A stretch of DNA of 64,000 bases from a virus (IMGVR_UViG_3300033233_001970), one strand, 5' to 3'; shown: positions 4,074-63,020, counted from the first letter of the stretch. Numbers and translations: made by a program. The notes: generated by a model from the sequence alone, not told the origin.

Positions 4074-4682
4074 TCAAGCCGCTCGACGTCGCAAACGTCG
4101 TGGGCGTCGCGCATGGCGCACAGGATGCTCAGGTGGCGAAGACCACGCTCTGCTGGACATCCGTTTCTCCACCGCACCGTACGCGAGCACGCCGGCCGCC
4201 CCGAGCGCCAGGCCGCCCACGACGAACAGAAGCGCCTTGCCCGTGGTCGACATGCCTACCGGCGTCGTACCGTACGCCCTCAAAACCGACTCGGCGAGCG
4301 CGACGCGTCGCGGCGTGTTGCACGTGCCGCATCGCTCGAATTTGTCCTGAAAGACGATGGTCGCGTCGGCGACGTTTGTGGTCGATCTGAGCGCCGCGAG
4401 GCCGTAGCTAGGAATGGTTGCGAGCTCTTGCCAAAGAAAATCAAGCTGGAGATCGAGCGACCAGACATCCCGTCCAGTTTGAGCGGCGTAAGCCTGCGCC
4501 TGGCTCCAACGTTGACCCAAACTCCATTGGCCGATCCCGCGTCCAGGGCCGGTCGCCTGCGCGGCCGTTGGATTCATCCCGGACTCTTGGTCGAGATTCC
4601 CGACGACGCCGGCAGCCTGAAAGTCCGTCAGCCCTTTGGAGACGAAGAAATCAAACGCGGTTCTGTCGTTGGGCGACGGCAT
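4074..4682 (-). CDS. phage tail-type lysozyme (Phage_lysozyme2-like) with C-terminal transmembrane segment
   Basis: FFVSKGLTDFQAAGVVGNLDQESG...GRGIGQW...QLDFLWQEL; hydrophobic ALLFVVGGLALGAAGVLAYGAV. Confidence 0.82.
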   Translation of the reverse strand: MPSPNDRTAFDFFVSKGLTDFQAAGVVGNLDQESGMNPTAAQATGPGRGIGQWSLGQRWSQAQAYAAQTGRDVWSLDLQLDFLWQELATIPSYGLAALRSTTNVADATIVFQDKFERCGTCNTPRRVALAESVLRAYGTTPVGMSTTGKALLFVVGGLALGAAGVLAYGAVEKRMSSRAWSSPPEHPVRHARRPRRLRRRAA

Positions 4683-30169: not shown

Positions 30170-30991
30170 TCACGATGCCGACTTCTTCTTTTCCAGCGAC
30201 CGCATGAGAAGCTCGGCGAGATCGACGACGCCGACGCTCGCGATCCCAGGCCCCTTCGCCGCAGAGGGCACGCCATCGCCCGCGCCGTCCACGATATCGC
30301 CCGCCGCCGCCTTGGCGTCCGCCGCTTCTTCGACGGAAGCGCGGTAGGTATCGATGAGCTTTGTGGGATCGAATGCCGAGGTCAATTCGTCCACGAGCTT
30401 CTCGGCCATTTCACGCTCACGCTCGGTGATGTTTTTGACATCGGGTCGCGCCAGCGTTTCCGAGCTCACGATTTCTTCCGGGTAGCGCATCGTTTCGATG
30501 GCGAAAAATCCGTCCCTTGCACGCAAAAGACCGAGCCTTGGTTTTGTCCGTAATTTGATCTTCACGAGCGCAGCGCGCCCCGTGTCCGCCAAAACCATCC
30601 GCAAAAGCTCGAAACCTCGAGCGCTCTTCGGACTCTTTCCGCCCGGAGCGATCCAATAGCTTTTCTCGAAGTACGCGGAATCGACCTCGTTTGGATCGAC
30701 GAACTGCACGATTTCGATCGAGCCTTTCGTCTCCTCGCCGCCATCCATTTCGGCAAGCTCTTCTTTCGTGAAGAAAGCGTACTTGCCATCGCCGATCTCG
30801 TAGCCCTTACCAATCTCCTCCCACGGCACATCGACCGCGCAGGATGCGCAGCGCCGGATCAGATTGATCCGCGTTCCACAAATGGTGTGAAGCTGGTTGA
30901 ACTTCGGGGCGAGATCCTTCGTCGCGCTGTAGAGCTTGACGGGGATCGTCACCATTCCAAACACGATGTCTCCGGTCCAAAATGCTCTCAT
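30170..30991 (-). CDS. ku: Ku DNA end-binding protein (NHEJ)
   Basis: MRAFWTGDIVFGMVTIPVKLYSAT...FNQLH...KGYEIGDGKY...IEIVQFVDPNEVDSAYFEKSYWIAP...VVDLAELLMRSL. Confidence 0.95.
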   Translation of the reverse strand: MRAFWTGDIVFGMVTIPVKLYSATKDLAPKFNQLHTICGTRINLIRRCASCAVDVPWEEIGKGYEIGDGKYAFFTKEELAEMDGGEETKGSIEIVQFVDPNEVDSAYFEKSYWIAPGGKSPKSARGFELLRMVLADTGRAALVKIKLRTKPRLGLLRARDGFFAIETMRYPEEIVSSETLARPDVKNITEREREMAEKLVDELTSAFDPTKLIDTYRASVEEAADAKAAAGDIVDGAGDGVPSAAKGPGIASVGVVDLAELLMRSLEKKKSAS

Positions 30992-31244
30992 TGGTTTTCT
31001 CCTTCGCTTTTTCCCAATGCGCTTTCGATGACGTGAGCGACGCGCTTTTCGAGATTCTTGATTTCTCGGTAGTACGCCTCTCGCGCCCGACTGAACTCGT
31101 CGTATTTTTCGCGATTTTGCGTTCCGTCTTCGTTTGTGACGCCAGCGTCGTTCGGGAACGTCGGCCATACGAGTCCGCGCACGGTGCAGCGCACGTCGGC
31201 GCCTCCGTCTGCGTGAAGCTTTACGAAGCAAACTTGATCGATTT

Positions 31245-32337: not shown

Positions 32338-32667
32338 TCATGGGTAGGTCGCTCCTACGGGCCACTCGCGGCCGGCGTCGTCGGTCAGGAAGACGACGCC
32401 CGAGAGGCGCTCGCAGTCGGGCCCGAGGTTTCGCACCTCGGCCTTGATCTCGTGGCGCGCGGCGTTCACGTACAGGATCTGGTGTGTCGGCGCGGGTGAA
32501 AATCCCGTGGTGTCCTTTTGGCGATCGTCCAGCACCATGCGGATCGATTGCTCGCCGATCAGGATAGCGGGAAGTCCCGCGTTGACGCTGAACGTCGCGC
32601 GCTTGAATTTGCCCGAACGCGTCGGCCTAAAAACGAGCGTGACCACATCGCCGCGCTTGATGTTCAT
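32338..32667 (-). CDS. hypothetical protein
   Basis: GAGG RBS, ATGA coupling. Confidence 0.55.
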   Translation of the reverse strand: MNIKRGDVVTLVFRPTRSGKFKRATFSVNAGLPAILIGEQSIRMVLDDRQKDTTGFSPAPTHQILYVNAARHEIKAEVRNLGPDCERLSGVVFLTDDAGREWPVGATYP

Positions 32668-34298
32668 GTTTGCACCTCAGGCCGGTACTCCGCGCCGGTT
32701 TTCCCGAACGTCGACGCGACGGCGTTCTGGCAGGTGAGCGCCTGCGGATCGCCGAGTGTGCCTTCGTTGTCGAGGAGCGGCCTCAGTTCCGGGTGCACGC
32801 GCAGGTGGTAGAGTTTTCGATGCGTTGTGTCCGGCTCCGGCGTCGAGTTCGTCAGCTCGACGACGAGGATCGGCGCCGAATCCTTGCGCGGCACGCGGAG
32901 CAGACGGCGAGGATGCCCGAGCGGATCGGTGTCCTCGTGCACGACTTCGGCGCCCCGGTCCGTGACGTAGCGTCCGACGCCATAGCGCTGGAGCATGATG
33001 CGGCGAACCTCTACGTTCATCTCAGAGTCGATGCGCTCGACGGTCAACCGTTCGGGATGCTCGATGATCTCGGCTGGTACACGTACGCCGTTGACGGCGA
33101 AGAGCGCCCATCCGTCGCGCCAGGCGAGGTGCGGGCCGTCGCCCGCGTGTGGGCGATTCCGATCGTCCTTGCGACAGACGGTCGGGAAGTCACTCACGAT
33201 CCAGAATCTCCGATGCTGGAACCGAGGTCCCCCGTGGATCGTCGCAGCCTCGTAATGCGCAAACAGCTCGTATTGCGGCAGATCAAGCTTCGCGACGTGT
33301 CGAAAAAACGAGAGGTAAGCGGTCCACGAGCTCCACATGTTGCCGCCGACCCCATACGATCCCCAATAGCTCGCGCACCGCACCAAATACCTCACTAGGG
33401 TCGGGGTCGCCGCGTAGGTCGCCGCGTCGATCGCCGCGTCGGTCGCCGCGTAGGTCGCCGCGTCGGTCGCCGCGTCGGTCGCCGCGTAGGTCGCCGCGTA
33501 GGTCGCCGCGTCGGTCGCCGCGTAGGTCGCCGCTCGGGTCGCCGCGTCGGTCGCCGCGTAGGTCGCCGCGGAGGTCGCCACTCGGGTCGCCGCGTCGGTC
33601 GCCGCGGAGGTTCCCGCGTAGGTCGCCGCTCGGGTCGCCGCGTCGGTCGCCGCGTCGGTCGCCGCGAAGGTCGCCGCGGAGGTCGCCGCTCGGGTCGCCG
33701 CGGAGGTCGCCGCTCGGGTCGCCGCGGAGGTCGCCGCTCGGGTCGCCGCGGAGGTCGCCACTCGGGTCGCCGCGTCGGTCGCCTCGTAGGTCGCCGCGTA
33801 GGTCGCCGCGTAGGTCGCCGCTCGGATCGCCGCGTAGGTCGCCGCTCGGGTCGCCGCGTCGGTCGCCGCGGAGGTCGCCGCGTCGGTCGCCGCGAAGGTC
33901 GCCGCTCCCAGTCGGGCAGTCGGCGGGGCCTCCACCCGTACCGCCGCCATCCCGTGCGACACGAGGAATGCGCACGCGGGGCCGATCGCGCGGAGCCAAT
34001 CGATCTCACGAGGAGCAAACCCGCACACGGCCAACGCTTCGCGAGGATGCTCCCGCAAATACCAGATTCCAGACGCCACGCTGGCAGCAATGGCACCCGT
34101 GAGCGGTGAGTCGACGAAGATCTCGCGCTCAGCCGGCTCTATCTTCGCCGCACGGTACAGACCGCGCATCGCCACCCGCATGGCCTCGCGATCCGCGCCG
34201 GCCATCGGCGAGGTACGCATCGCGTTGGCGATCCACTTGTCGGCCCAAGGCTTGAGTTGGGCCCGGTGCTCCTTCGTCAGGGTGTTAGTCCGAGACAT
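32664..34298 (-). CDS. DUF6745-like phage protein with internal AATx tetrapeptide repeats
   Basis: C-terminal RPHAGDGPHLAWRDGWALFAVNGVRVP...NVEVRRIMLQRYG...NSTPEPD...YHLRVHP...AVASTFG. Confidence 0.8.
   Translation of the reverse strand: MSRTNTLTKEHRAQLKPWADKWIANAMRTSPMAGADREAMRVAMRGLYRAAKIEPAEREIFVDSPLTGAIAASVASGIWYLREHPREALAVCGFAPREIDWLRAIGPACAFLVSHGMAAVRVEAPPTARLGAATFAATDAATSAATDAATRAATYAAIRAATYAATYAATYEATDAATRVATSAATRAATSAATRAATSAATRAATSAATFAATDAATDAATRAATYAGTSAATDAATRVATSAATYAATDAATRAATYAATDAATYAATYAATDAATDAATYAATDAAIDAATYAATPTLVRYLVRCASYWGSYGVGGNMWSSWTAYLSFFRHVAKLDLPQYELFAHYEAATIHGGPRFQHRRFWIVSDFPTVCRKDDRNRPHAGDGPHLAWRDGWALFAVNGVRVPAEIIEHPERLTVERIDSEMNVEVRRIMLQRYGVGRYVTDRGAEVVHEDTDPLGHPRRLLRVPRKDSAPILVVELTNSTPEPDTTHRKLYHLRVHPELRPLLDNEGTLGDPQALTCQNAVASTFGKTGAEYRPEVQT
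33405..33906. repeat. 12-bp coding tandem repeat, ~42 units (GGTCGCCGCGTC/GTA/GGA/GAA/TCG variants)
   Basis: Seen directly; encodes AAT[D/Y/S/F/R]. Confidence 0.95.
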
Positions 34299-39028: not shown

Positions 39029-39850
39029 TCACTCATAATCGCGCACCGCAATGAATCTCGGCGCGCGCGGCTTTCCTGTAGTCGAAAGCGCGTCGTATCG
39101 AATCGTGACGCGCGCACCGACCTTCGGAGGATTCTTGCACTCGTCTACGTCGAGCCCGCTCCCTACGTTGAACTCGACGCCGTTAGGGAACTTGCAGACT
39201 AGCGCGCCGATGACGCCCGCGCGCGATCCTTTGCCTTGCGTGTAGCCGGTCACGACGGCCTCGGCGTCGTGCGTAACTTTGACCTTGAGAAGCGTCATCG
39301 AACGCGCGCAGGCGTAGAGCGATCGGGCGCGTCGAAGCATGATCCCTTCGCCGTCCGCGTCGCGAACCTTTTCGAACGTTTCCTCGAAATGTGCTCGCGA
39401 ACGGCAAAGCGTCTGCTCGACCATGCGAACATGCACCGCGCCGACGTAGCTCACGAGCCGCGCGAGATTCGAGAGGCGTGCCTCGAAAGGAATCTTCCCG
39501 ATCGCGCCGTGCGAAAAATTCGTCACGTCTGGCGCGTCGAACGCCATGTAGCGAATGCTCGACCATTCACGCGAGCTTGCTCGGTCGGATTTCACGATTC
39601 CGACGATGCGCTGAAATTCTTTGTAGCCACGATCGGGGCCGCAAAGCTCACCGTCGAGAACTTCGCCGCGAGGAAAGCGATTGACGAACTCGGCGGGCGC
39701 CGCGATGACGTGCCAATGTTCGCGCGTGCGCAGATGGGAGCCGTCCCAAATGGCGCGTACACCGTCGAGTTTTTCGCTCATGTAGTGACCCGTTGGGTCG
39801 ATCGTCGTGTTGTACGTCTCGGCGAGGAGGACGCGATCTTTGGAGGACAT
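39029..39850 (-). CDS. ATP-dependent DNA ligase (minimal adenylation + OB domain)
   Basis: SEKLDGVRA (motif I), LDGEL, AFD, EGIMLR, LLKVK, FNVGSG, KPRAPRF. Confidence 0.93.
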   Translation of the reverse strand: MSSKDRVLLAETYNTTIDPTGHYMSEKLDGVRAIWDGSHLRTREHWHVIAAPAEFVNRFPRGEVLDGELCGPDRGYKEFQRIVGIVKSDRASSREWSSIRYMAFDAPDVTNFSHGAIGKIPFEARLSNLARLVSYVGAVHVRMVEQTLCRSRAHFEETFEKVRDADGEGIMLRRARSLYACARSMTLLKVKVTHDAEAVVTGYTQGKGSRAGVIGALVCKFPNGVEFNVGSGLDVDECKNPPKVGARVTIRYDALSTTGKPRAPRFIAVRDYE

Positions 39851-49164: not shown

Positions 49165-50130
49165 CTACACCTTCCGGCTTACGAGATCCGCGATCTCACC
49201 AGCGAAATCCTGGCGCGCGTCGTCGTAAATTGACAGTGTGCGCCCATCAGCATGGCGGCTGAACTTCTGCACTTTCCTTGTGTTACCGTTCGTCTCGTCG
49301 AGTGCTGTCGTGATCGCGGTATGGCGCAAACCGTGAGGCCGAACCTTTCCGACATCCGCTTTTTTGCCGAGATTTTTAATGATCGCATACACAGCGGAGC
49401 CGGTAAGCGCGTGGCCGTAGCTGTTGCGGTCGAGAGCGATGAACAACGGCCCAGGTTCATTTCCGCGAACGACGAGCCATGCACGTAACGCGTCCTTGGT
49501 TTTCTCAGGAAGCGTAACCCTTTCACGAGCATGTCGCCCTTTCCCGAACACCCATACGATACCTTCTTCGAGGTCTAAATGCTCGAGGTGAAGTGACACG
49601 ACCTCACCGCGACGAAATGCAACATCATGAAGTAGCCGAACGAGCGCCGCATCGCGAACGCCTTTCGAGTCGGTACGTTCCTTCAATGCGTTGATCATTT
49701 TCTTGATTTTATCTTCGCCTGGGCCTCGCGTATCGCGGTACGGCTGCACATCGAGCCCTTCGATTTCGATGTTCCAGTTCACCATGCCGAGCATTCTTGC
49801 GAGTTTCACGATGGATCGAATCGCGGCAAGGCGACGGTTTATTGTTGTAGCTTGCAATGGTTTTTCAGTGGCTTGCGATGTTTTTTCGAGCATGTGCGCG
49901 CGATACCGGAGAACAAGCTCGTTCGCGGCGCCCGCTTCGCGCCGAAGAAGCTCGTCGACGGCGTCGCCGACGGCTGCAAGCTCGAGGAATGCTCGGAAGT
50001 CTTCAAGATCGCGACTGTACGCGCGCAATGTGTTCGGGCTGCGGCCGTTCAGAAACGCAGCAATCAAGCGCTGCGCCACGGAGCCCTCATTGACGAGCTC
50101 TGTGTGAGTGGAAAGCACGAGATCGCTCAT
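49165..50130 (-). CDS. tyrosine recombinase/integrase (XerC/D-like)
   Basis: SPNTLRAYSRDL; catalytic R (FRRGEV), K (GKG), HGLRH, RH, Y (LSIYD). Confidence 0.93.
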   Translation of the reverse strand: MSDLVLSTHTELVNEGSVAQRLIAAFLNGRSPNTLRAYSRDLEDFRAFLELAAVGDAVDELLRREAGAANELVLRYRAHMLEKTSQATEKPLQATTINRRLAAIRSIVKLARMLGMVNWNIEIEGLDVQPYRDTRGPGEDKIKKMINALKERTDSKGVRDAALVRLLHDVAFRRGEVVSLHLEHLDLEEGIVWVFGKGRHARERVTLPEKTKDALRAWLVVRGNEPGPLFIALDRNSYGHALTGSAVYAIIKNLGKKADVGKVRPHGLRHTAITTALDETNGNTRKVQKFSRHADGRTLSIYDDARQDFAGEIADLVSRKV

Positions 50131-58824: not shown

Positions 58825-60729
58825 GTGATGGAAGCAGAAGATGTGGAAGTGGAAGAGAACGTCGAAATCAGCGCTGGCCGTACCCGCGTCTACAAGTACG
58901 GTCTCCTTGCGCCTACCGTGAATACCAAGATCGTCGAAGCGCAGATGCGGCTCGCGCACAACTATCGCAATACGCTTGTCGAGATCGAGCGTGGGCGTCG
59001 CAATGCGCAGCGTTCTGTGCTTGCGAAATTCGATCTCTCCGGAAAGGAACAGGCGGTTCTGGCCACAAGAGCGGAGCTCGAAGCTGCCTTGCTCGCGGTG
59101 CGCGTTGCGCGTGCAGCCTCAAGATCACGTTCCGAGACCGAAGATATGCGTGATCGGGTCAAGGCGGCGAGAAAATCACACAAAGAATCGACGAAGGCTC
59201 TCGCGATCGAGCGCAAAGCGCTCCGCGCGGACACCCAAGTTCAGCTCGAGATCGACGTCATCAACGATCGTGCGGCTGAATTGCGCCGCAGCGCGCGTGC
59301 GTTTTCGGGCCTCGGAGAAATGGGGCCTCACTTCGGTGCGTGGGGCACCTATTTGCTGATCGAAGCCGCCGACATGGCAGCGCGAAAAGCTCCATTCTTC
59401 AAGGATTCGGAGCCCAACGACCCGAGATTCGTTCGATTCGAGGGCGAAGGTCAGGTGAGCGTACAGCTTCAAGGCGGCATGAGCGTCGAGGATCTTTTCA
59501 GCGGCTTCCATGCACGCGCACGTGTCGACGCCGTAAACGAAAATGCGTGGTTCGCGAAGAAGCGCGGAGACCGCAGGCGCGCCTCGCGCACGATGCTGTC
59601 GCTTCGGGTCGCCTCCGAAGGTCGCGATCCCGTGTGGGCGACGTGGCCGATGATCATGCACAGACCGATTCCAGAAGGCGCGAGTATTCAACGCATCACC
59701 GTGAGCCGTCGAAAGTACGGCCCGCGTGAAGAATGGTCGGTCGATTTCACACTGAAACTCTCCGACAAGACTCCGGCACGCACAAAATGCGGGCAATCGG
59801 GCGTGGTGACGATCGATCTCGGGTGGCGAACGATCGGCAACGAGATCCGTGTCGCTGCGTGGCGCGACGATCAAGGAAAACATGGTGAGCTACGCCTCGA
59901 CGCGCGTGCTGTTTCGGGATTGAAGAAGCCGGACGAGCTCCGATCGCTTCGTGACGAAAAGTTCAACTTTGCGCGGGCTGCTCTCATCGAAATATTGGGA
60001 AAGGTAACCATTCCCGATTGGCTTCGAGAGGAGATTTCACACATCGCGCAATGGCGCTCGCAGGCGCGACTCGCAGCGCTCGCTCGAAAGTGGAGCGATC
60101 GTCACTTCGAAGGTGACGACGAGGCGTACGCGATGATCGAAACATGGCGCTACCGCGACCACCATCTGTGGGAATACGAATCTGGACAGCGCATCGGTTC
60201 GTTGCGGCATCGGCGCGAGATCTATCGACGCTTCGCCGCCGAGCTCGGGCGGAAGTACAAGACACTTCTTCTCGAGGATTTCGACCTGCGCGGGGTCGCG
60301 ACACGGGCACCGACCGAAGAAGGAGCAGAAAATCTCGTTGCTCGTCGGAACCGGCAACTCGCCGCCGTCAGTGAGCTTCGCGGCTGCCTCTGCAATGTTT
60401 TCGGCGAAGACGCGTTGAAGGTTTCTCCTGAAAATTCGACGCACATTTGCAACGCATGCGGAGCGGTCGAGGAGTTCGACGCAGCTTTGAAGATCGATCA
60501 CACGTGTTCGGCGTGCGGAGCGACGTGGGATCAGGACGACAACGCGACGATCGTGCTTTTCGAGAGGTGGCGCGCCGCGAAAAAGGCGGAAGCCGCTCGC
60601 GCGGCTGAAAATCCGAAGGATGCTAATGTGGTACGCGAATCAAGATGGGTTCGGGCAAAGAGAATGAAGGAGGCAAAAATCGAAAGACAGAACGCTGCTC
60701 GCAACAAGGATCCGAAAGACGAGGAATGA
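58825..60729 (+). CDS. cas12m: compact type V CRISPR effector, Cas12m/V-U1 (C2c4)-like
   Basis: QMRLAHNYRNTLVEIE, long REC coiled coil, RFEGEGQVSVQLQ, RuvC-I IDLGWR, QWRSQARLAALARKW, HRREIYRRFAA, RuvC-II LLEDFDL, Zn finger CNAC...CSAC, RuvC-III WDQDDNA; abuts CRISPR array. Confidence 0.85.
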   Translation: MMEAEDVEVEENVEISAGRTRVYKYGLLAPTVNTKIVEAQMRLAHNYRNTLVEIERGRRNAQRSVLAKFDLSGKEQAVLATRAELEAALLAVRVARAASRSRSETEDMRDRVKAARKSHKESTKALAIERKALRADTQVQLEIDVINDRAAELRRSARAFSGLGEMGPHFGAWGTYLLIEAADMAARKAPFFKDSEPNDPRFVRFEGEGQVSVQLQGGMSVEDLFSGFHARARVDAVNENAWFAKKRGDRRRASRTMLSLRVASEGRDPVWATWPMIMHRPIPEGASIQRITVSRRKYGPREEWSVDFTLKLSDKTPARTKCGQSGVVTIDLGWRTIGNEIRVAAWRDDQGKHGELRLDARAVSGLKKPDELRSLRDEKFNFARAALIEILGKVTIPDWLREEISHIAQWRSQARLAALARKWSDRHFEGDDEAYAMIETWRYRDHHLWEYESGQRIGSLRHRREIYRRFAAELGRKYKTLLLEDFDLRGVATRAPTEEGAENLVARRNRQLAAVSELRGCLCNVFGEDALKVSPENSTHICNACGAVEEFDAALKIDHTCSACGATWDQDDNATIVLFERWRAAKKAEAARAAENPKDANVVRESRWVRAKRMKEAKIERQNAARNKDPKDEE

Positions 60730-60748: not shown

Positions 60749-61920
60749 GTTGCAAAGGTTGCTCGACACCTGGGAGATCGAGACGTGCTACCGGTGAAGA
60801 CGATTTGGCGTCCGAAATCGTTGCAAAGGTTGCTCGACACCTGGGAGATCGAGACAGTTGGAGCGCGAGATCCGCGCCGTCGCATTGCGGAGTTGCAAAG
60901 GTTGCTCGACACCTGGGAGATCGAGACTACGTGAACACCGTGTGCTCGGAGCCACTCGGCGAGTTGCAAAGGTTGCTCGACACCTGGGAGATCGAGACAG
61001 CACCCAATTGATCGTCTGCGGCGTCGACGACGCGTTGCAAAGGTTGCTCGACACCTGGGAGATCGAGACAAATCCTCGGCGGCCCGCCTCGTCCTCCGCT
61101 ACCTCGTTGCAAAGGTTGCTCGACACCTGGGAGATCGAGACACGGCGAATGAGAAGACCGCCGCACGCGAGAGCGCGGTTGCAAAGGTTGCTCGACACCT
61201 GGGAGATCGAGACTCGGCGAAGCAACGTCAACGCGCCGCGATGCGCCGCGTTGCAAAGGTTGCTCGACACCTGGGAGATCGAGACGTGCTGACGGACGAC
61301 TTTCATTCGGCCGGACGAATCGTTGCAAAGGTTGCTCGACACCTGGGAGATCGAGACTCTCGCCGTTCGGATCGAGACGGTTGCTCGACACCTGGGAGAT
61401 CGAGACTGGTGCCAGAAGGGTTTACGGCGTCGCAAAGGTTGCTCGACACCTGGGAGATCGAGACATCCCGTTAGCGTGTGAAGCCTAAGGCGTCGCGCTG
61501 TTGCAAAGGTTGCTCGACACCTGGGAGATCGAGACGATGCCGATCAGTCGCGCGAGGACGCGACGTCGGCTGGTTGCAAAGGTTGCTCGACACCTGGGAG
61601 ATCGAGACTCTAGGTTGAGCTCAGCGATCTTCTCTTCGACTTCGGTTGCAAAGGTTGCTCGACACCTGGGAGATCGAGACAAGTACCCAACGAAGTACCA
61701 CCTCGCGCACGCCGGGCTGTTGCAAAGGTTGCTCGACACCTGGGAGATCGAGACAGGTAGGGGCGCAAAGGCCGCTGCCCGACGTCAAGGAGTTGCAAAG
61801 GTTGCTCGACACCTGGGAGATCGAGACCCGGCGCGCGGGTCGCACTACGGCGCCGCGTCGCATGTTGCAAAGGCCGCGTCGCATGTTGCAAAGGTTGCTC
61901 GACACCTTCTAGTTCGAGAC
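60749..61920 (+). CRISPR. CRISPR array, 36-nt repeat GTTGCAAAGGTTGCTCGACACCTGGGAGATCGAGAC, 17 repeats/16 spacers (mostly 35-38 nt)
   Basis: Repeats start at 60749, 60820, 60892, 60963, 61034, 61106, 61178, 61250, 61322, 61379 (5'-truncated), 61429, 61500, 61573, 61645, 61719, 61792, 61885 (variant); 3' stem CTCGA/TCGAG; degeneration at the right end implies + orientation. Confidence 0.98.
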
Positions 61921-61929
61921 GCGCTCGCC

Positions 61930-62396
61930 GGTTGCTCGACACCAGAAGATCGAGACAGCTTGAATCCCTGCGGTTCTTGCAAAGGTTGCTCGGCACCATT
62001 GAAGATCGAGACTTCACGATTCCCGAAAAGGCAGCTCGACGCCTTGAGCTCGAGACTTCTTTGCGGCCATTTCTCAAAGGTAGCTCGATACCTAGAAATT
62101 CGAGACGAGTCCCGTCTCCAGCAAAGGCTGCTCGACGCCTTCGAAGTCGAGATAGGAGAGCTTCGGAGTTGTAGAATCGTGACAGCAAAGGTAGCTCGAC
62201 GCCTTCGAAGTCGAGGACTACTACGACAACGGACCAGCGGCGGCTCGATGCCGTGAAATTCGAGACTAAGCCACTTGTAAAGGTAGCTCGACACCTTGAA
62301 GCTCGAGACTACATGGGCAGAATCGTAACGGCAGCTCGATGCCTAAAGATCGAGAATCGCCCTCGCAACGGCAGCTCGACGCCTAAAGATCGAGAC
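61930..62396 (+). CRISPR. degenerate repeat tail, ~10 variant repeats with short spacers
   Basis: Units of type AAGG(T/C)AGCTCGA(C/T)(A/G)CC-N5/6-TCGAGAC; stem kept, loop variable. Confidence 0.85.
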
Positions 62397-62411
62397 GGAC
62401 ATTAAAGCACC

Positions 62412-63020
62412 ATGAAATTCTCCGACATCAAACTTCTCTCCGTGGGCGACACGATCGGCATGGTCGGCGCCGTCTATCTCGACGAGAAAGAAGAGCAGCT
62501 CATCGTCTTCTTTTTTCCTGGCGAGTACGACGGCGCGCCGAGGCTCGGTCTCACCATCAAGCCCGAAGCCGTCGATATGACGGTCGAGGATTGGACGGCA
62601 TTTCTTCGTCAAACCGACTTGCTCGAGACGGAGATTCTCGCCAAGGAATCGAAAGAGAGTGCGACGTTCTACAAAGCGATCGTGCGCAAGAGTCAACGAA
62701 GTATCGATCAGATCGTGTCGTGGCGCGTCTACAAAAGAGATCAATACCGTTGTAGATATTGCGGCAACGACAACATCCCGCTCACGGTCGACCATCTGGT
62801 TCTTTGGGAAAAGGGCGGCCCAAGCACGGAGGCGAACCTTCTGAGTTGCTGCAAAAAATGCAACAAGGTTCGCGGCAACATGCCGTACGCGGAATGGCTC
62901 ACGCACGCGCACTATGCTCGTGTTTCGGCCAAGCTCGACGACACAACGAAGCGCGCGAACGAAGCGCTCGTCGCTACGCTCGACAAGATCCCGCTCAATG
63001 TGCACATCAAGTCGAGGTAA
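62412..63020 (+). CDS. HNH endonuclease with N-terminal extension
   Basis: VYKRDQYRCRYCG...LTVDHLVLWEKGGPSTEANLLSCCKKCNKVRG. Confidence 0.9.
   Translation: MKFSDIKLLSVGDTIGMVGAVYLDEKEEQLIVFFFPGEYDGAPRLGLTIKPEAVDMTVEDWTAFLRQTDLLETEILAKESKESATFYKAIVRKSQRSIDQIVSWRVYKRDQYRCRYCGNDNIPLTVDHLVLWEKGGPSTEANLLSCCKKCNKVRGNMPYAEWLTHAHYARVSAKLDDTTKRANEALVATLDKIPLNVHIKSR

What the first reader, a model, noticed from the sequence alone, without database searches (positions are those of the whole stretch)
58825..60729. Phage-encoded Cas12m-like effector with an apparently intact RuvC D-E-D triad
Seen: D331 (IDLGWR), E484 (LLEDFD), D571 (WDQDDNA), numbered from 58825, plus a CxxC...CxxC finger. Known: characterised Cas12m proteins (e.g. 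MmCas12m) have a non-canonical RuvC site and silence by DNA binding. Inference: this 634-aa protein may be a nuclease-active relative or a TnpB-to-Cas12m intermediate. No cas1/cas2 and no obvious tracrRNA are in the window, consistent with a phage mini-system that relies on host adaptation.
Basis: partly seen in the sequence, partly recalled or inferred. Interest (0 to 1): 0.75.

Follow-up and report, generated by a model that had tools for sequence, protein, structure and literature searches.

The report
Phage-borne Cas12m with its CRISPR array
This gene encodes a genuine Cas12m (type V-M CRISPR) protein, followed by its own 15-spacer array, on a large phage-like element from sediment. Cas12m proteins with the same intact D-E-D motif, including virus-borne ones, are already described and bind DNA without cutting it, so this is an ordinary new member.

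Summary
ORF 58825-60729 (+) has D331, E484, D571 and a CxxC...CxxC finger exactly as described. It is a full-length Cas12m by sequence (PDB 23vw_A, E 2e-92) and by fold (TM 0.77-0.82 to MmCas12m2 and GoCas12m).

It has 15 full 36-nt repeats, followed by about 11 degenerate units. No Cas1, Cas2 or Cas4 family was found in the window.

- D-E-D Cas12m proteins are a known branch (clades 3 and 4 of Wu 2022).
- Bigelyte 2024 tested four D-E-D variants, one from an IMG/VR viral contig. None cleaved dsDNA.
- The closest solved relative, which I infer to be TfCas12m, interfered only when the plasmid origin was targeted.
- A scan of IMG/VR viral contigs found 78 loci with relatives. Fifty of the 79 relatives scored (these plus GenBank phage Rctr197k and three MAGs) carry D-E-D, and most of the loci have arrays.
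- A 2026 preprint already reports a myxophage Cas12m with D-E-D.
- The fold is a complete Cas12m, not a TnpB intermediate.

The most likely function is RNA-guided DNA binding that silences competing mobile elements. Spacer targets and phage identity remain unproven. This is a new member of a known kind, of low to moderate interest.

The parts
58815..58820 (+). Shine-Dalgarno-like GAGGAG, 4 nt before GTG 58825 and 7 nt before ATG 58828
   Evidence: Sequence read directly. Public gene calls start at the ATG, giving 633 aa.
58825..60729 (+). cas12m gene (634 aa from GTG, 633 aa from ATG 58828): type V-M effector of the D-E-D type (clade 3-like)
   Evidence: PDB phmmer: 23vw_A Cas12m E 1.9e-92, MmCas12m2 1e-25, GoCas12m 8.5e-26. 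AF2 model pLDDT 85.7. Foldseek TM 0.77-0.82 to 8hhl and 8pm4. Pfam Cas12f1-like TNB domain.
59815..59817 (+). RuvC-I Asp331 (IDLGWR)
   Evidence: D in 103 of 120 nearest homologs. Aligns with H317 of MmCas12m2.
60274..60276 (+). RuvC-II Glu484 (LLEDFD)
   Evidence: E in 108 of 120 nearest homologs. Aligns with D485 of MmCas12m2.
60535..60537 (+). RuvC-III Asp571 (WDQDDNA)
   Evidence: D in 118 of 120 nearest homologs. Aligns with D579 of MmCas12m2.
60448..60516 (+). TNB zinc finger, C542-x2-C545 ... C561-x2-C564
   Evidence: Pfam PF07282 over residues 527-576. The four Cys are nearly invariant in 120 homologs.
60749..61827 (+). CRISPR array. It has 15 full 36-nt repeats (14 identical, one with a single substitution) and one 5'-truncated repeat at 61379-61406. 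It carries 13 full spacers of 35-38 nt, two spacer remnants (13 and 22 nt) on either side of the truncated repeat, and a 57-nt stretch after the last repeat that contains a 21-nt tandem duplication. The repeat ends in ...TCGAGAC. AGGT/ACCT and CTCGA/TCGAG can form two crossing stems (a pseudoknot).
   Evidence: 26 core matches against 0 expected, all on the + strand and all within 60761-62395. Only 19 nt separate the stop codon from the first repeat.
61885..62397 (+). Tail of about 11 diverged repeat-like units separated by very short spacers. They keep the GCTCGAyrCC...TCGAGA core. The tail ends 15 nt before the HNH gene.
   Evidence: This is the subject of a separate first-stage note.

Best explanation

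Proposed mechanism:
- The array is probably co-transcribed with cas12m.
- Cas12m probably cuts the pre-crRNA itself into a repeat-derived pseudoknot handle plus a guide of about 17-20 nt.
- The complex then finds a PAM-flanked dsDNA target and forms a stable R-loop.
- It blocks transcription or replication by staying bound rather than by cutting.
- For the element, the likely benefit is to silence competing phages or plasmids in the same host.

The D-E-D triad is the commonest state in this branch, seen in about two thirds to four fifths of the relatives scored. It most likely serves metal-dependent holding of the displaced strand, or some other non-cleaving role.

Shown here: family membership, fold, motifs, the array and its architecture, the absence of adaptation genes, and the abundance of virus-borne relatives. 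Inferred from characterised relatives: self-processing, guide length, PAM dependence, and binding without cleavage.
For: Sequence and fold place it firmly in Cas12m. The nearest solved chain is 23vw_A, titled 'CRISPR-associated DNA-binding protein Cas12m'. It carries D316/E469/D560 in 577 aa, which is TfCas12m numbering (D306/E459/D550, 567 aa) shifted by 10 (my inference).

PMC11013384 tested four D-E-D variants (Ms, Ap, Un, Tf). None showed dsDNA cleavage. Purified MsCas12m showed no cis or collateral cleavage. TfCas12m interfered only when the ori was targeted, as expected for a roadblock rather than a nuclease. HDD-to-DED reversion did not restore cleavage in MmCas12m2.

The triad is repeatedly dispensable in the family. 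A tree of 135 relatives needs at least 19 changes between D-E-D and other states. Among the five rows nearest to this protein on that tree, two are NAD variants at 43-44% identity. Relatives on viral contigs that lack the triad still carry large arrays: 22 repeats next to an NED protein, 22 next to NDD, 20 next to NGD and 17 next to HMD.

The gene-then-array layout, with 36-nt repeats of the same stem topology, is shared by most of the 78 IMG/VR loci and by GenBank phage Rctr197k. No Cas1, Cas2 or Cas4 family was found. No copy of the repeat core lies on the opposite strand.
Against: D331, E484 and D571 are far better conserved than the alignment average: about 86-98% against a mean column identity of 40%. 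Some selected role for the site exists, and catalysis is the simplest such role.

The published negative cleavage results come from relatives that are only moderately similar (the nearest homologs in the public collections are at most 51% identical, and UnCas12m is about 37%) and from a few assay conditions. Nicking or slow cleavage was not excluded for every variant.

No protospacer was found, so neither a target class nor a PAM supports the competition model. No RNA data exist for crRNA processing.
Confidence: 0.7

Rival explanations
1. The protein is a nuclease-active Cas12m. The intact D-E-D RuvC site cuts or nicks the guide-matched DNA, so the element destroys competitors rather than silencing them.
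For: The canonical triad is present and strongly conserved in this branch: DED in 99 of 120 nearest homologs and in 50 of 79 relatives from the fetched loci. The zinc finger is intact. Omura 2023 explicitly left open that clades 3 and 4 might carry out two-metal hydrolysis.
Against: All four D-E-D Cas12m proteins tested so far failed to cleave dsDNA. One came from an IMG/VR viral contig, and another is the probable identity of the nearest solved structure. TfCas12m interfered only at the ori. Restoring DED in MmCas12m2 did not restore cleavage. The triad has been lost at least 19 times among relatives that still keep arrays.
Confidence: 0.15
2. The locus is carried by a megaplasmid or another non-viral element, not a phage. 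It works in plasmid-plasmid competition, as described for most V-M systems.
For: PMC11656645 states that V-M is strongly enriched in plasmids, especially those over 200 kb. No capsid, portal or terminase was found among the 82 window ORFs scanned against Pfam or the 30 larger ones scanned against PHROGs. First-stage notes on the other windows report none either.
Against: Only 19 Pfam families turned up in 82 ORFs. They include a phage tail lysozyme domain (4074-4682, E 5.5e-34), phage-type exonucleases, and HNH and LAGLIDADG homing endonucleases. No Rep, Par, Tra or Mob family was among them. Relatives sit on complete IMG/VR genomes with direct terminal repeats, one of them with a terminase match, and on GenBank Caudoviricetes Rctr197k.
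Confidence: 0.2
3. The system is used mainly to regulate the element's own genes or host genes, as a programmable repressor, rather than to fight other mobile elements.
For: Cas12m is a natural repressor. No spacer matches any phage or plasmid in the reference collections. The tail of repeat-like units with guides too short to target anything could play a regulatory or buffering role.
Against: No spacer matches the window itself beyond chance 12-13-mers. None matched convincingly in 401 genomes of the class around a Polyangiaceae MAG. Fifteen unrelated spacers look like an immunity record rather than a regulon.
Confidence: 0.08

Closest known systems
TfCas12m (QNB45423.1; probably PDB 23vw_A, 'CRISPR-associated DNA-binding protein Cas12m')
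   Same: It is the best solved relative (E 1.9e-92 over residues 23-576). It has the same IDLGWR / LEEF / WDQD D-E-D motifs, the same zinc finger and the same overall length class. In E. coli it interferes with plasmids only at the ori and shows no dsDNA cleavage.
   Different: It is bacterial and only moderately similar. The window protein has an acidic N-terminal extension and a longer basic C-terminal tail, both modelled with low confidence. Equating 23vw with Tf is my inference from residue numbering.
UnCas12m (IMG/VR Ga0104756_100012943, clade c3, Bigelyte 2024)
   Same: It is a virus-contig-derived D-E-D Cas12m with an adjacent array.
   Different: About 37% identity. It comes from a different repeat sequence family and a smaller phage.
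MvCas12m of myxophage MV-1 (bioRxiv 10.64898/2026.09.14.751636)
   Same: It is a phage-encoded Cas12m with a conserved D-E-D triad (D305/E463/D555). It has an adjacent array, no cas1/2/4, no tracrRNA and no protospacers.
   Different: 610 aa and 8 spacers, against 633-634 aa and 15 here. No protein with that length and numbering appeared among the relatives I fetched.
MmCas12m2 and GoCas12m (PDB 8hhl, 8pm4), the reference type V-M effectors
   Same: Same fold over the full length (TM 0.77-0.82) and the same domain order, including the coiled-coil REC insertion. They use a single crRNA with a pseudoknot handle.
   Different: Their RuvC sites are H-D-D rather than D-E-D. Identity is about 21-22% in the structural alignment. 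They belong to clade 2 and come from Actinobacteria.
Virus Rctr197k (GenBank KX853510), gene Rctr197k_108 plus annotated CRISPR
   Same: It is a deposited Caudoviricetes genome with a Cas12m homolog (37% identity, D-E-D) immediately followed by a 1.5-kb CRISPR region.
   Different: It is annotated only as 'similar to transposase' and has never been discussed as Cas12m, as far as I found.

Membership tests
Cas12m / CRISPR-Cas subtype V-M | Full-length sequence homology to characterised Cas12m effectors | tested here: met
   phmmer against PDB: 23vw_A 1.9e-92, 8pm4 8.5e-26, 8hhl 1.3e-25, 23vu 1.1e-22. TnpB and Cas12f match only at the TNB finger, with E above 0.1.
Cas12m / CRISPR-Cas subtype V-M | Cas12m fold (WED, REC1, REC2 coiled-coil insertion, RuvC, TNB) | tested here: met
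   AF2 pLDDT 85.7, pTM 0.75. Foldseek TM 0.77/0.82 to 8hhl and 0.77/0.80 to 8pm4. The next best matches, Cas12f and TnpB, reach TM 0.3-0.55.
Cas12m / CRISPR-Cas subtype V-M | CRISPR array next to the gene, with a roughly 36-nt repeat that can form the two-stem pseudoknot handle, transcribed in the same direction | tested here: met
   The array at 60749-61827 lies 19 nt after the stop codon. The repeat has crossing stems AGGT/ACCT and CTCGA/TCGAG and ends in ...GAC. Most of the 78 IMG/VR loci share this layout. The pseudoknot itself was read by eye. MFE folding cannot show it.
Cas12m / CRISPR-Cas subtype V-M | Single crRNA, no tracrRNA | tested here: inconclusive
   No copy of the repeat core lies on the opposite strand anywhere in the window. 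A partial anti-repeat was not searched for, and no RNA data exist.
Cas12m / CRISPR-Cas subtype V-M | No adaptation module in the locus (usual for V-M on mobile elements) | tested here: met
   No Cas1, Cas2 or Cas4 family among 82 window ORFs, nor in the precomputed Pfam hits of the 38 called genes around the locus.
Cas12m / CRISPR-Cas subtype V-M | RNA-guided dsDNA binding without target cleavage | not testable with these tools
   Inferred only from tested D-E-D relatives (PMC11013384).
Cas12m clade 2 (MmCas12m2 type) | Non-canonical H-D-D RuvC triad | tested here: not met
   D331/E484/D571 align with H317/D485/D579. The protein belongs with the D-E-D clades. It resembles the clade c3 entries of Bigelyte Table S1. 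No tree with those reference sequences was built.
TnpB (IS200/IS605 RNA-guided nuclease) or a TnpB-Cas12 intermediate | Protein of about 350-550 aa without the REC2 insertion, guided by an omega RNA at the transposon end, with no CRISPR array | tested here: not met
   634 aa with long helical REC segments (helices 34-159). TM to TnpB structures is only 0.31-0.39 by query length. NCBIfam TnpB models score 15-17 bits against cut-offs of 100-425. A true CRISPR array follows the gene.

The most novel reading that the evidence does not exclude
Unlike the four tested D-E-D variants, this phage-borne clade-3 Cas12m uses its conserved D-E-D site catalytically. It might, for example, nick the displaced strand or degrade single-stranded replication intermediates of a competitor phage. 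That would make it a naturally nuclease-active Cas12m and would show that the family contains both cutters and binders.
Probability: 0.12. Interest if true: 0.55.

Novelty: new member of a known kind. Interest (0 to 1): 0.25.

Why it matters
It matters little for basic biology. D-E-D Cas12m proteins, virus-borne Cas12m proteins, and effector-plus-array loci without adaptation genes are all documented already. These sources are Wu 2022 as cited in PMC10442227, PMC11013384 with its Table S1, PMC12607003, PMC11656645 and the 2026 myxophage preprint.

Two points have some value. First, the locus adds a well-preserved 15-spacer example on a very large element. The survey run here (78 IMG/VR loci, about 2000 clusters at 50% identity with E <= 1e-30) shows that the preprint's claim of a 'first phage Cas12m' understates how common these are. 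Second, one question stays open: the triad is strongly conserved in proteins that apparently do not cut, and has been lost at least 19 times among the relatives sampled. A protein like this one could be used to test that.

Tried and rejected
(1) Whole-genome access. No genome is held for this window, and the ENA record behind L001 is not searchable. The rest of the 246-kb contig could therefore not be checked for virion genes.

(2) Exact-peptide scan of IMG/VR with the protein alone found nothing. The alignment-based scan succeeded.

(3) Spacer targets.
- No match of the array in INPHARED phages.
- One 35-nt, 88.6% GC-rich hit in an Azospirillum plasmid at E 0.3 was rejected.
- The window itself gave only 12-13-nt chance matches.
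- Three MAGs that carry relatives gave nothing convincing.
- A search of 401 genomes of the class around a Polyangiaceae MAG gave eight weak hits. They either span repeat-spacer borders or are gapped, GC-rich matches. The spacer-4 hit is 26 of 35 ungapped. All were rejected. One of these weak hits lies in an unpublished genome (G335).
- The first 20 nt of spacer 1 match exactly in three related IMG/VR contigs (L099-L101), with a 5' flank ending in CTG. The match stops at nt 20, no other spacer hits these 105-316-kb records, and about 0.1-0.3 chance hits were expected for my three scans. This is kept only as a weak lead.

(4) HNH gene 62412-63020 as a nuclease partner. No HNH, M41 peptidase or other neighbour of this locus recurs next to cas12m in about 80 related loci. 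Only an integrase recurs, in L064 and three further loci (L041, L050, L057). Rejected.

(5) Sequencing runs. No RNA holder is listed. Two sediment DNA runs hold the locus, and their contigs break at the array. Nothing was learned about expression or spacer turnover.

(6) MFE folding of the repeat is unremarkable (z 0.95), as expected for a pseudoknot.

(7) Looking for the reference c3 sequences or MV-1 Cas12m among the fetched proteins found none. The Wu 2022 paper itself is not held.

(8) HK97 capsid family in four related IMG/VR records: no match.

Full report
**Observation**

The ORF at 58825-60729 on the + strand translates without stops to 634 residues from GTG. Codon 2 is an ATG. Public gene calls use it, giving 633 aa. 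GAGGAG lies 7 nt upstream of that ATG.

- IDLGWR with D331 (59815-59817)
- LLEDFD with E484 (60274-60276)
- WDQDDNA with D571 (60535-60537)
- C542-x2-C545 ... C561-x2-C564

HMMER aligns the three acidic residues with the RuvC-I, II and III positions of solved Cas12m structures.

**What the protein is**

Pfam recognises only the Cas12f1-like TNB finger. NCBIfam TnpB models score far below their cut-offs.

Against the PDB, the protein matches Cas12m chains over nearly its whole length:
- 23vw_A, 'CRISPR-associated DNA-binding protein Cas12m': E 1.9e-92, residues 23-576
- GoCas12m 8pm4: 8.5e-26
- MmCas12m2 8hhl: 1.3e-25
- UnCas12m4a 23vu: 1.1e-22

An AlphaFold2 model built on 35 homologs is confident (pLDDT 85.7, pTM 0.75). 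It superposes on MmCas12m2 and GoCas12m with TM 0.77-0.82. Cas12f, TnpB and Fanzor reach only 0.3-0.55. The protein is therefore a complete Cas12m, with the long helical REC segments, and not a TnpB-like intermediate.

**The locus**

Nineteen nucleotides after the stop codon a CRISPR array begins (60749-61827). Its features are:
- 15 full 36-nt repeats, 14 of them identical
- one 5'-truncated repeat at 61379-61406
- 13 full spacers of 35-38 nt, two spacer remnants around the truncated repeat, and a 57-nt stretch after the last repeat that holds a 21-nt duplication

The repeat ends in ...TCGAGAC. Its segments AGGT/ACCT and CTCGA/TCGAG interleave. This is the pseudoknot topology described for Cas12m crRNA handles (PMC10442227). 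I read this directly from the sequence. MFE folding cannot show pseudoknots and was unremarkable.

From 61885 to 62397 there are about 11 diverged repeat-like units with very short spacers. A degenerate core pattern finds 26 copies against 0 expected. All lie on the + strand, all within 60761-62395, and none lies elsewhere in the window.

No Cas1, Cas2 or Cas4 family occurs among 82 window ORFs or among the 38 called genes around the locus.

**The carrier**

The identical protein is recorded on a 246-kb contig and on a 119.6-kb ENA contig. DNA runs from two sediment-metagenome studies hold the locus.

The window is mostly orphan genes in long same-strand blocks. Only 19 Pfam families appear in 82 ORFs:
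- Ku
- ATP-dependent DNA ligase
- a PD-(D/E)XK exonuclease
- an RNase T-like exonuclease
- a tyrosine integrase
- HNH and LAGLIDADG endonucleases
- a phage tail lysozyme domain at 4074-4682

I found no capsid, portal or terminase. First-stage notes on the other windows report none either. The rest of the contig could not be searched.

'Phage-encoded' is therefore likely but unproven. A megaplasmid remains possible, and V-M systems are known to be enriched on large plasmids (PMC11656645).

**How common this is**

The family is large: 2016 clusters at 50% identity with E <= 1e-30 in 1.84 billion representatives.

Among the 120 nearest homologs (40-51% identity), triad states are D-E-D in 99, NED in 6, NAD in 4, PAD in 4 and HDD in 2.

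An alignment-based scan of IMG/VR returned 78 distinct viral-contig loci with relatives at 24-46% identity. I scored 79 relatives in all: these loci, GenBank phage Rctr197k and three MAG loci. Fifty of them carry D-E-D. Most of the loci have a 36-nt-repeat array starting just after the gene.

Several of these records are complete genomes with direct terminal repeats. One of them has a terminase match.

GenBank phage Rctr197k (KX853510) carries a homolog at 37% identity followed by an annotated CRISPR region.

Neighbouring genes are not conserved among these loci, apart from an integrase in L064 and three further loci. The downstream HNH gene is therefore not a conserved partner.

**What is already known**

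- Wu 2022, as summarised in PMC10442227, split Cas12m into four clades. Clades 3 and 4 carry D-E-D or near variants. The same paper reports that converting HDD to DED did not restore cleavage in MmCas12m2.
- Bigelyte 2024 (PMC11013384) tested four D-E-D variants (Ms, Ap, Un, Tf) together with HDD and NDD variants. No variant cleaved dsDNA. Six variants bound in a PAM-dependent way. Purified MsCas12m showed neither cis nor collateral cleavage. TfCas12m interfered with plasmids only when the ori was targeted.
- UnCas12m came from an IMG/VR contig. Its length and triad numbering (583 aa, D304/E457/D548) are reproduced exactly by my locus L013.
- Table S1 of that paper lists many IMG/VR Cas12m proteins, labelled clade c3. 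A Polyangiaceae c3 protein there shares the motif pattern of the window protein.
- The chain 23vw_A has D316/E469/D560 in 577 residues. This is TfCas12m numbering plus 10, so I infer that it is TfCas12m.
- A landfill virome study placed viral effectors with Cas12m/V-U1 (PMC12607003).
- A September 2026 preprint describes a myxophage Cas12m with D305/E463/D555, an eight-spacer array, no adaptation genes and no protospacers. It calls this the first phage Cas12m.

**Mechanism**

Putting this together, the best-supported reading is a binding-type V-M system:
- self-processed crRNAs
- PAM-dependent R-loop formation
- silencing of transcription or replication of targeted DNA, most plausibly competing mobile elements

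The triad's strong conservation argues that the site has a function. Three facts argue that the family's core function does not need RuvC catalysis:
- at least 19 independent changes to non-canonical states on a tree of 135 relatives
- NAD variants among this protein's nearest neighbours on that tree
- large arrays next to triad-less viral relatives

I put 0.7 on binding without cleavage and about 0.15 on real nuclease or nickase activity.

**Targets**

No convincing protospacer was found:
- reference phages and plasmids
- the window itself
- three MAGs with relatives
- 401 genomes around a Polyangiaceae MAG

The first 20 nt of spacer 1 match three related IMG/VR contigs next to a CTG flank. 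The match ends at nt 20 and stands alone. It is compatible with chance.

**Verdict**

The inference that the intact triad marks something unusual is not supported by the literature or by the survey here. This is a new, well-preserved member of the known D-E-D branch of Cas12m, on a large and probably viral element.

Noticed in passing
window 61885-62397: After the regular array come about 11 diverged repeat-like units with spacers of only about 4-30 nt. They keep the GCTCGAyrCC...TCGAGA core, and the first stem changes in a compensatory way (for example AGGT/ACCT to GGCA/TGCC). The repeat of a Gemmatimonadales MAG locus (L082) resembles these tail units more than the main repeat. Some related viral loci (for example L004) also show mixed repeat variants.
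   Followed up: partly
window 61358-61428 and 61852-61893: The array shows rearrangement scars. One is a 5'-truncated repeat preceded by a stray TCGAGAC (61371-61406). The other is an exact 21-nt tandem duplication, GCCGCGTCGCATGTTGCAAAG x2, which includes the first 9 nt of a repeat.
   Followed up: no
window 62412-63020: An HNH endonuclease gene (Pfam HNH, many PHROG HNH families) starts 15 nt after the last repeat-like unit. No HNH gene recurs beside cas12m in about 80 related loci, so it looks like a homing endonuclease rather than a partner of the system.
   Followed up: yes
window 55042-56187 and flanks 54550-54850: A 381-aa ORF with a weak PHROG 'transposase' match (phrog_4285, E 8e-10) is flanked by short purine-rich direct repeats (families D5 and D6). 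Another first-stage note reads this as a TIGR-Tas-like system. I did not examine it.
   Followed up: no
window 30170-31231 and 39029-39850: A Ku homolog (Pfam Ku 1.3e-36; phrog_4873) and an ATP-dependent DNA ligase (phrog_114, 1e-49) lie on the minus-strand block. Together they suggest an element-encoded end-joining repair pair.
   Followed up: no
window 33405-33905: A 12-nt tandem repeat (GGTCGCCGCGTA, about 42 copies) lies inside the 544-aa ORF 32664-34298, which ends in a DUF6745 domain. This is also the highest-GC stretch of the window (0.69).
   Followed up: no
L099-L101 (IMG/VR contigs of 316, 105 and 210 kb): The first 20 nt of spacer 1 (60785-60804) match exactly in a region conserved among three related large viral contigs. 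The 5' flank ends in ...TCTG. A match of 20 nt would be long enough for a Cas12m guide, but it is statistically weak and unsupported by any other spacer.
   Followed up: partly
L064 (IMGVR_UViG_3300045012_000235, 124.6 kb, direct terminal repeats): The closest viral-contig relative (46% identity, D-E-D, 19-repeat array) also has a tyrosine integrase about 3 kb beyond its array. That integrase is 39% identical to the window's integrase at 49165-50130. It is the clearest neighbour shared between the two loci.
   Followed up: partly
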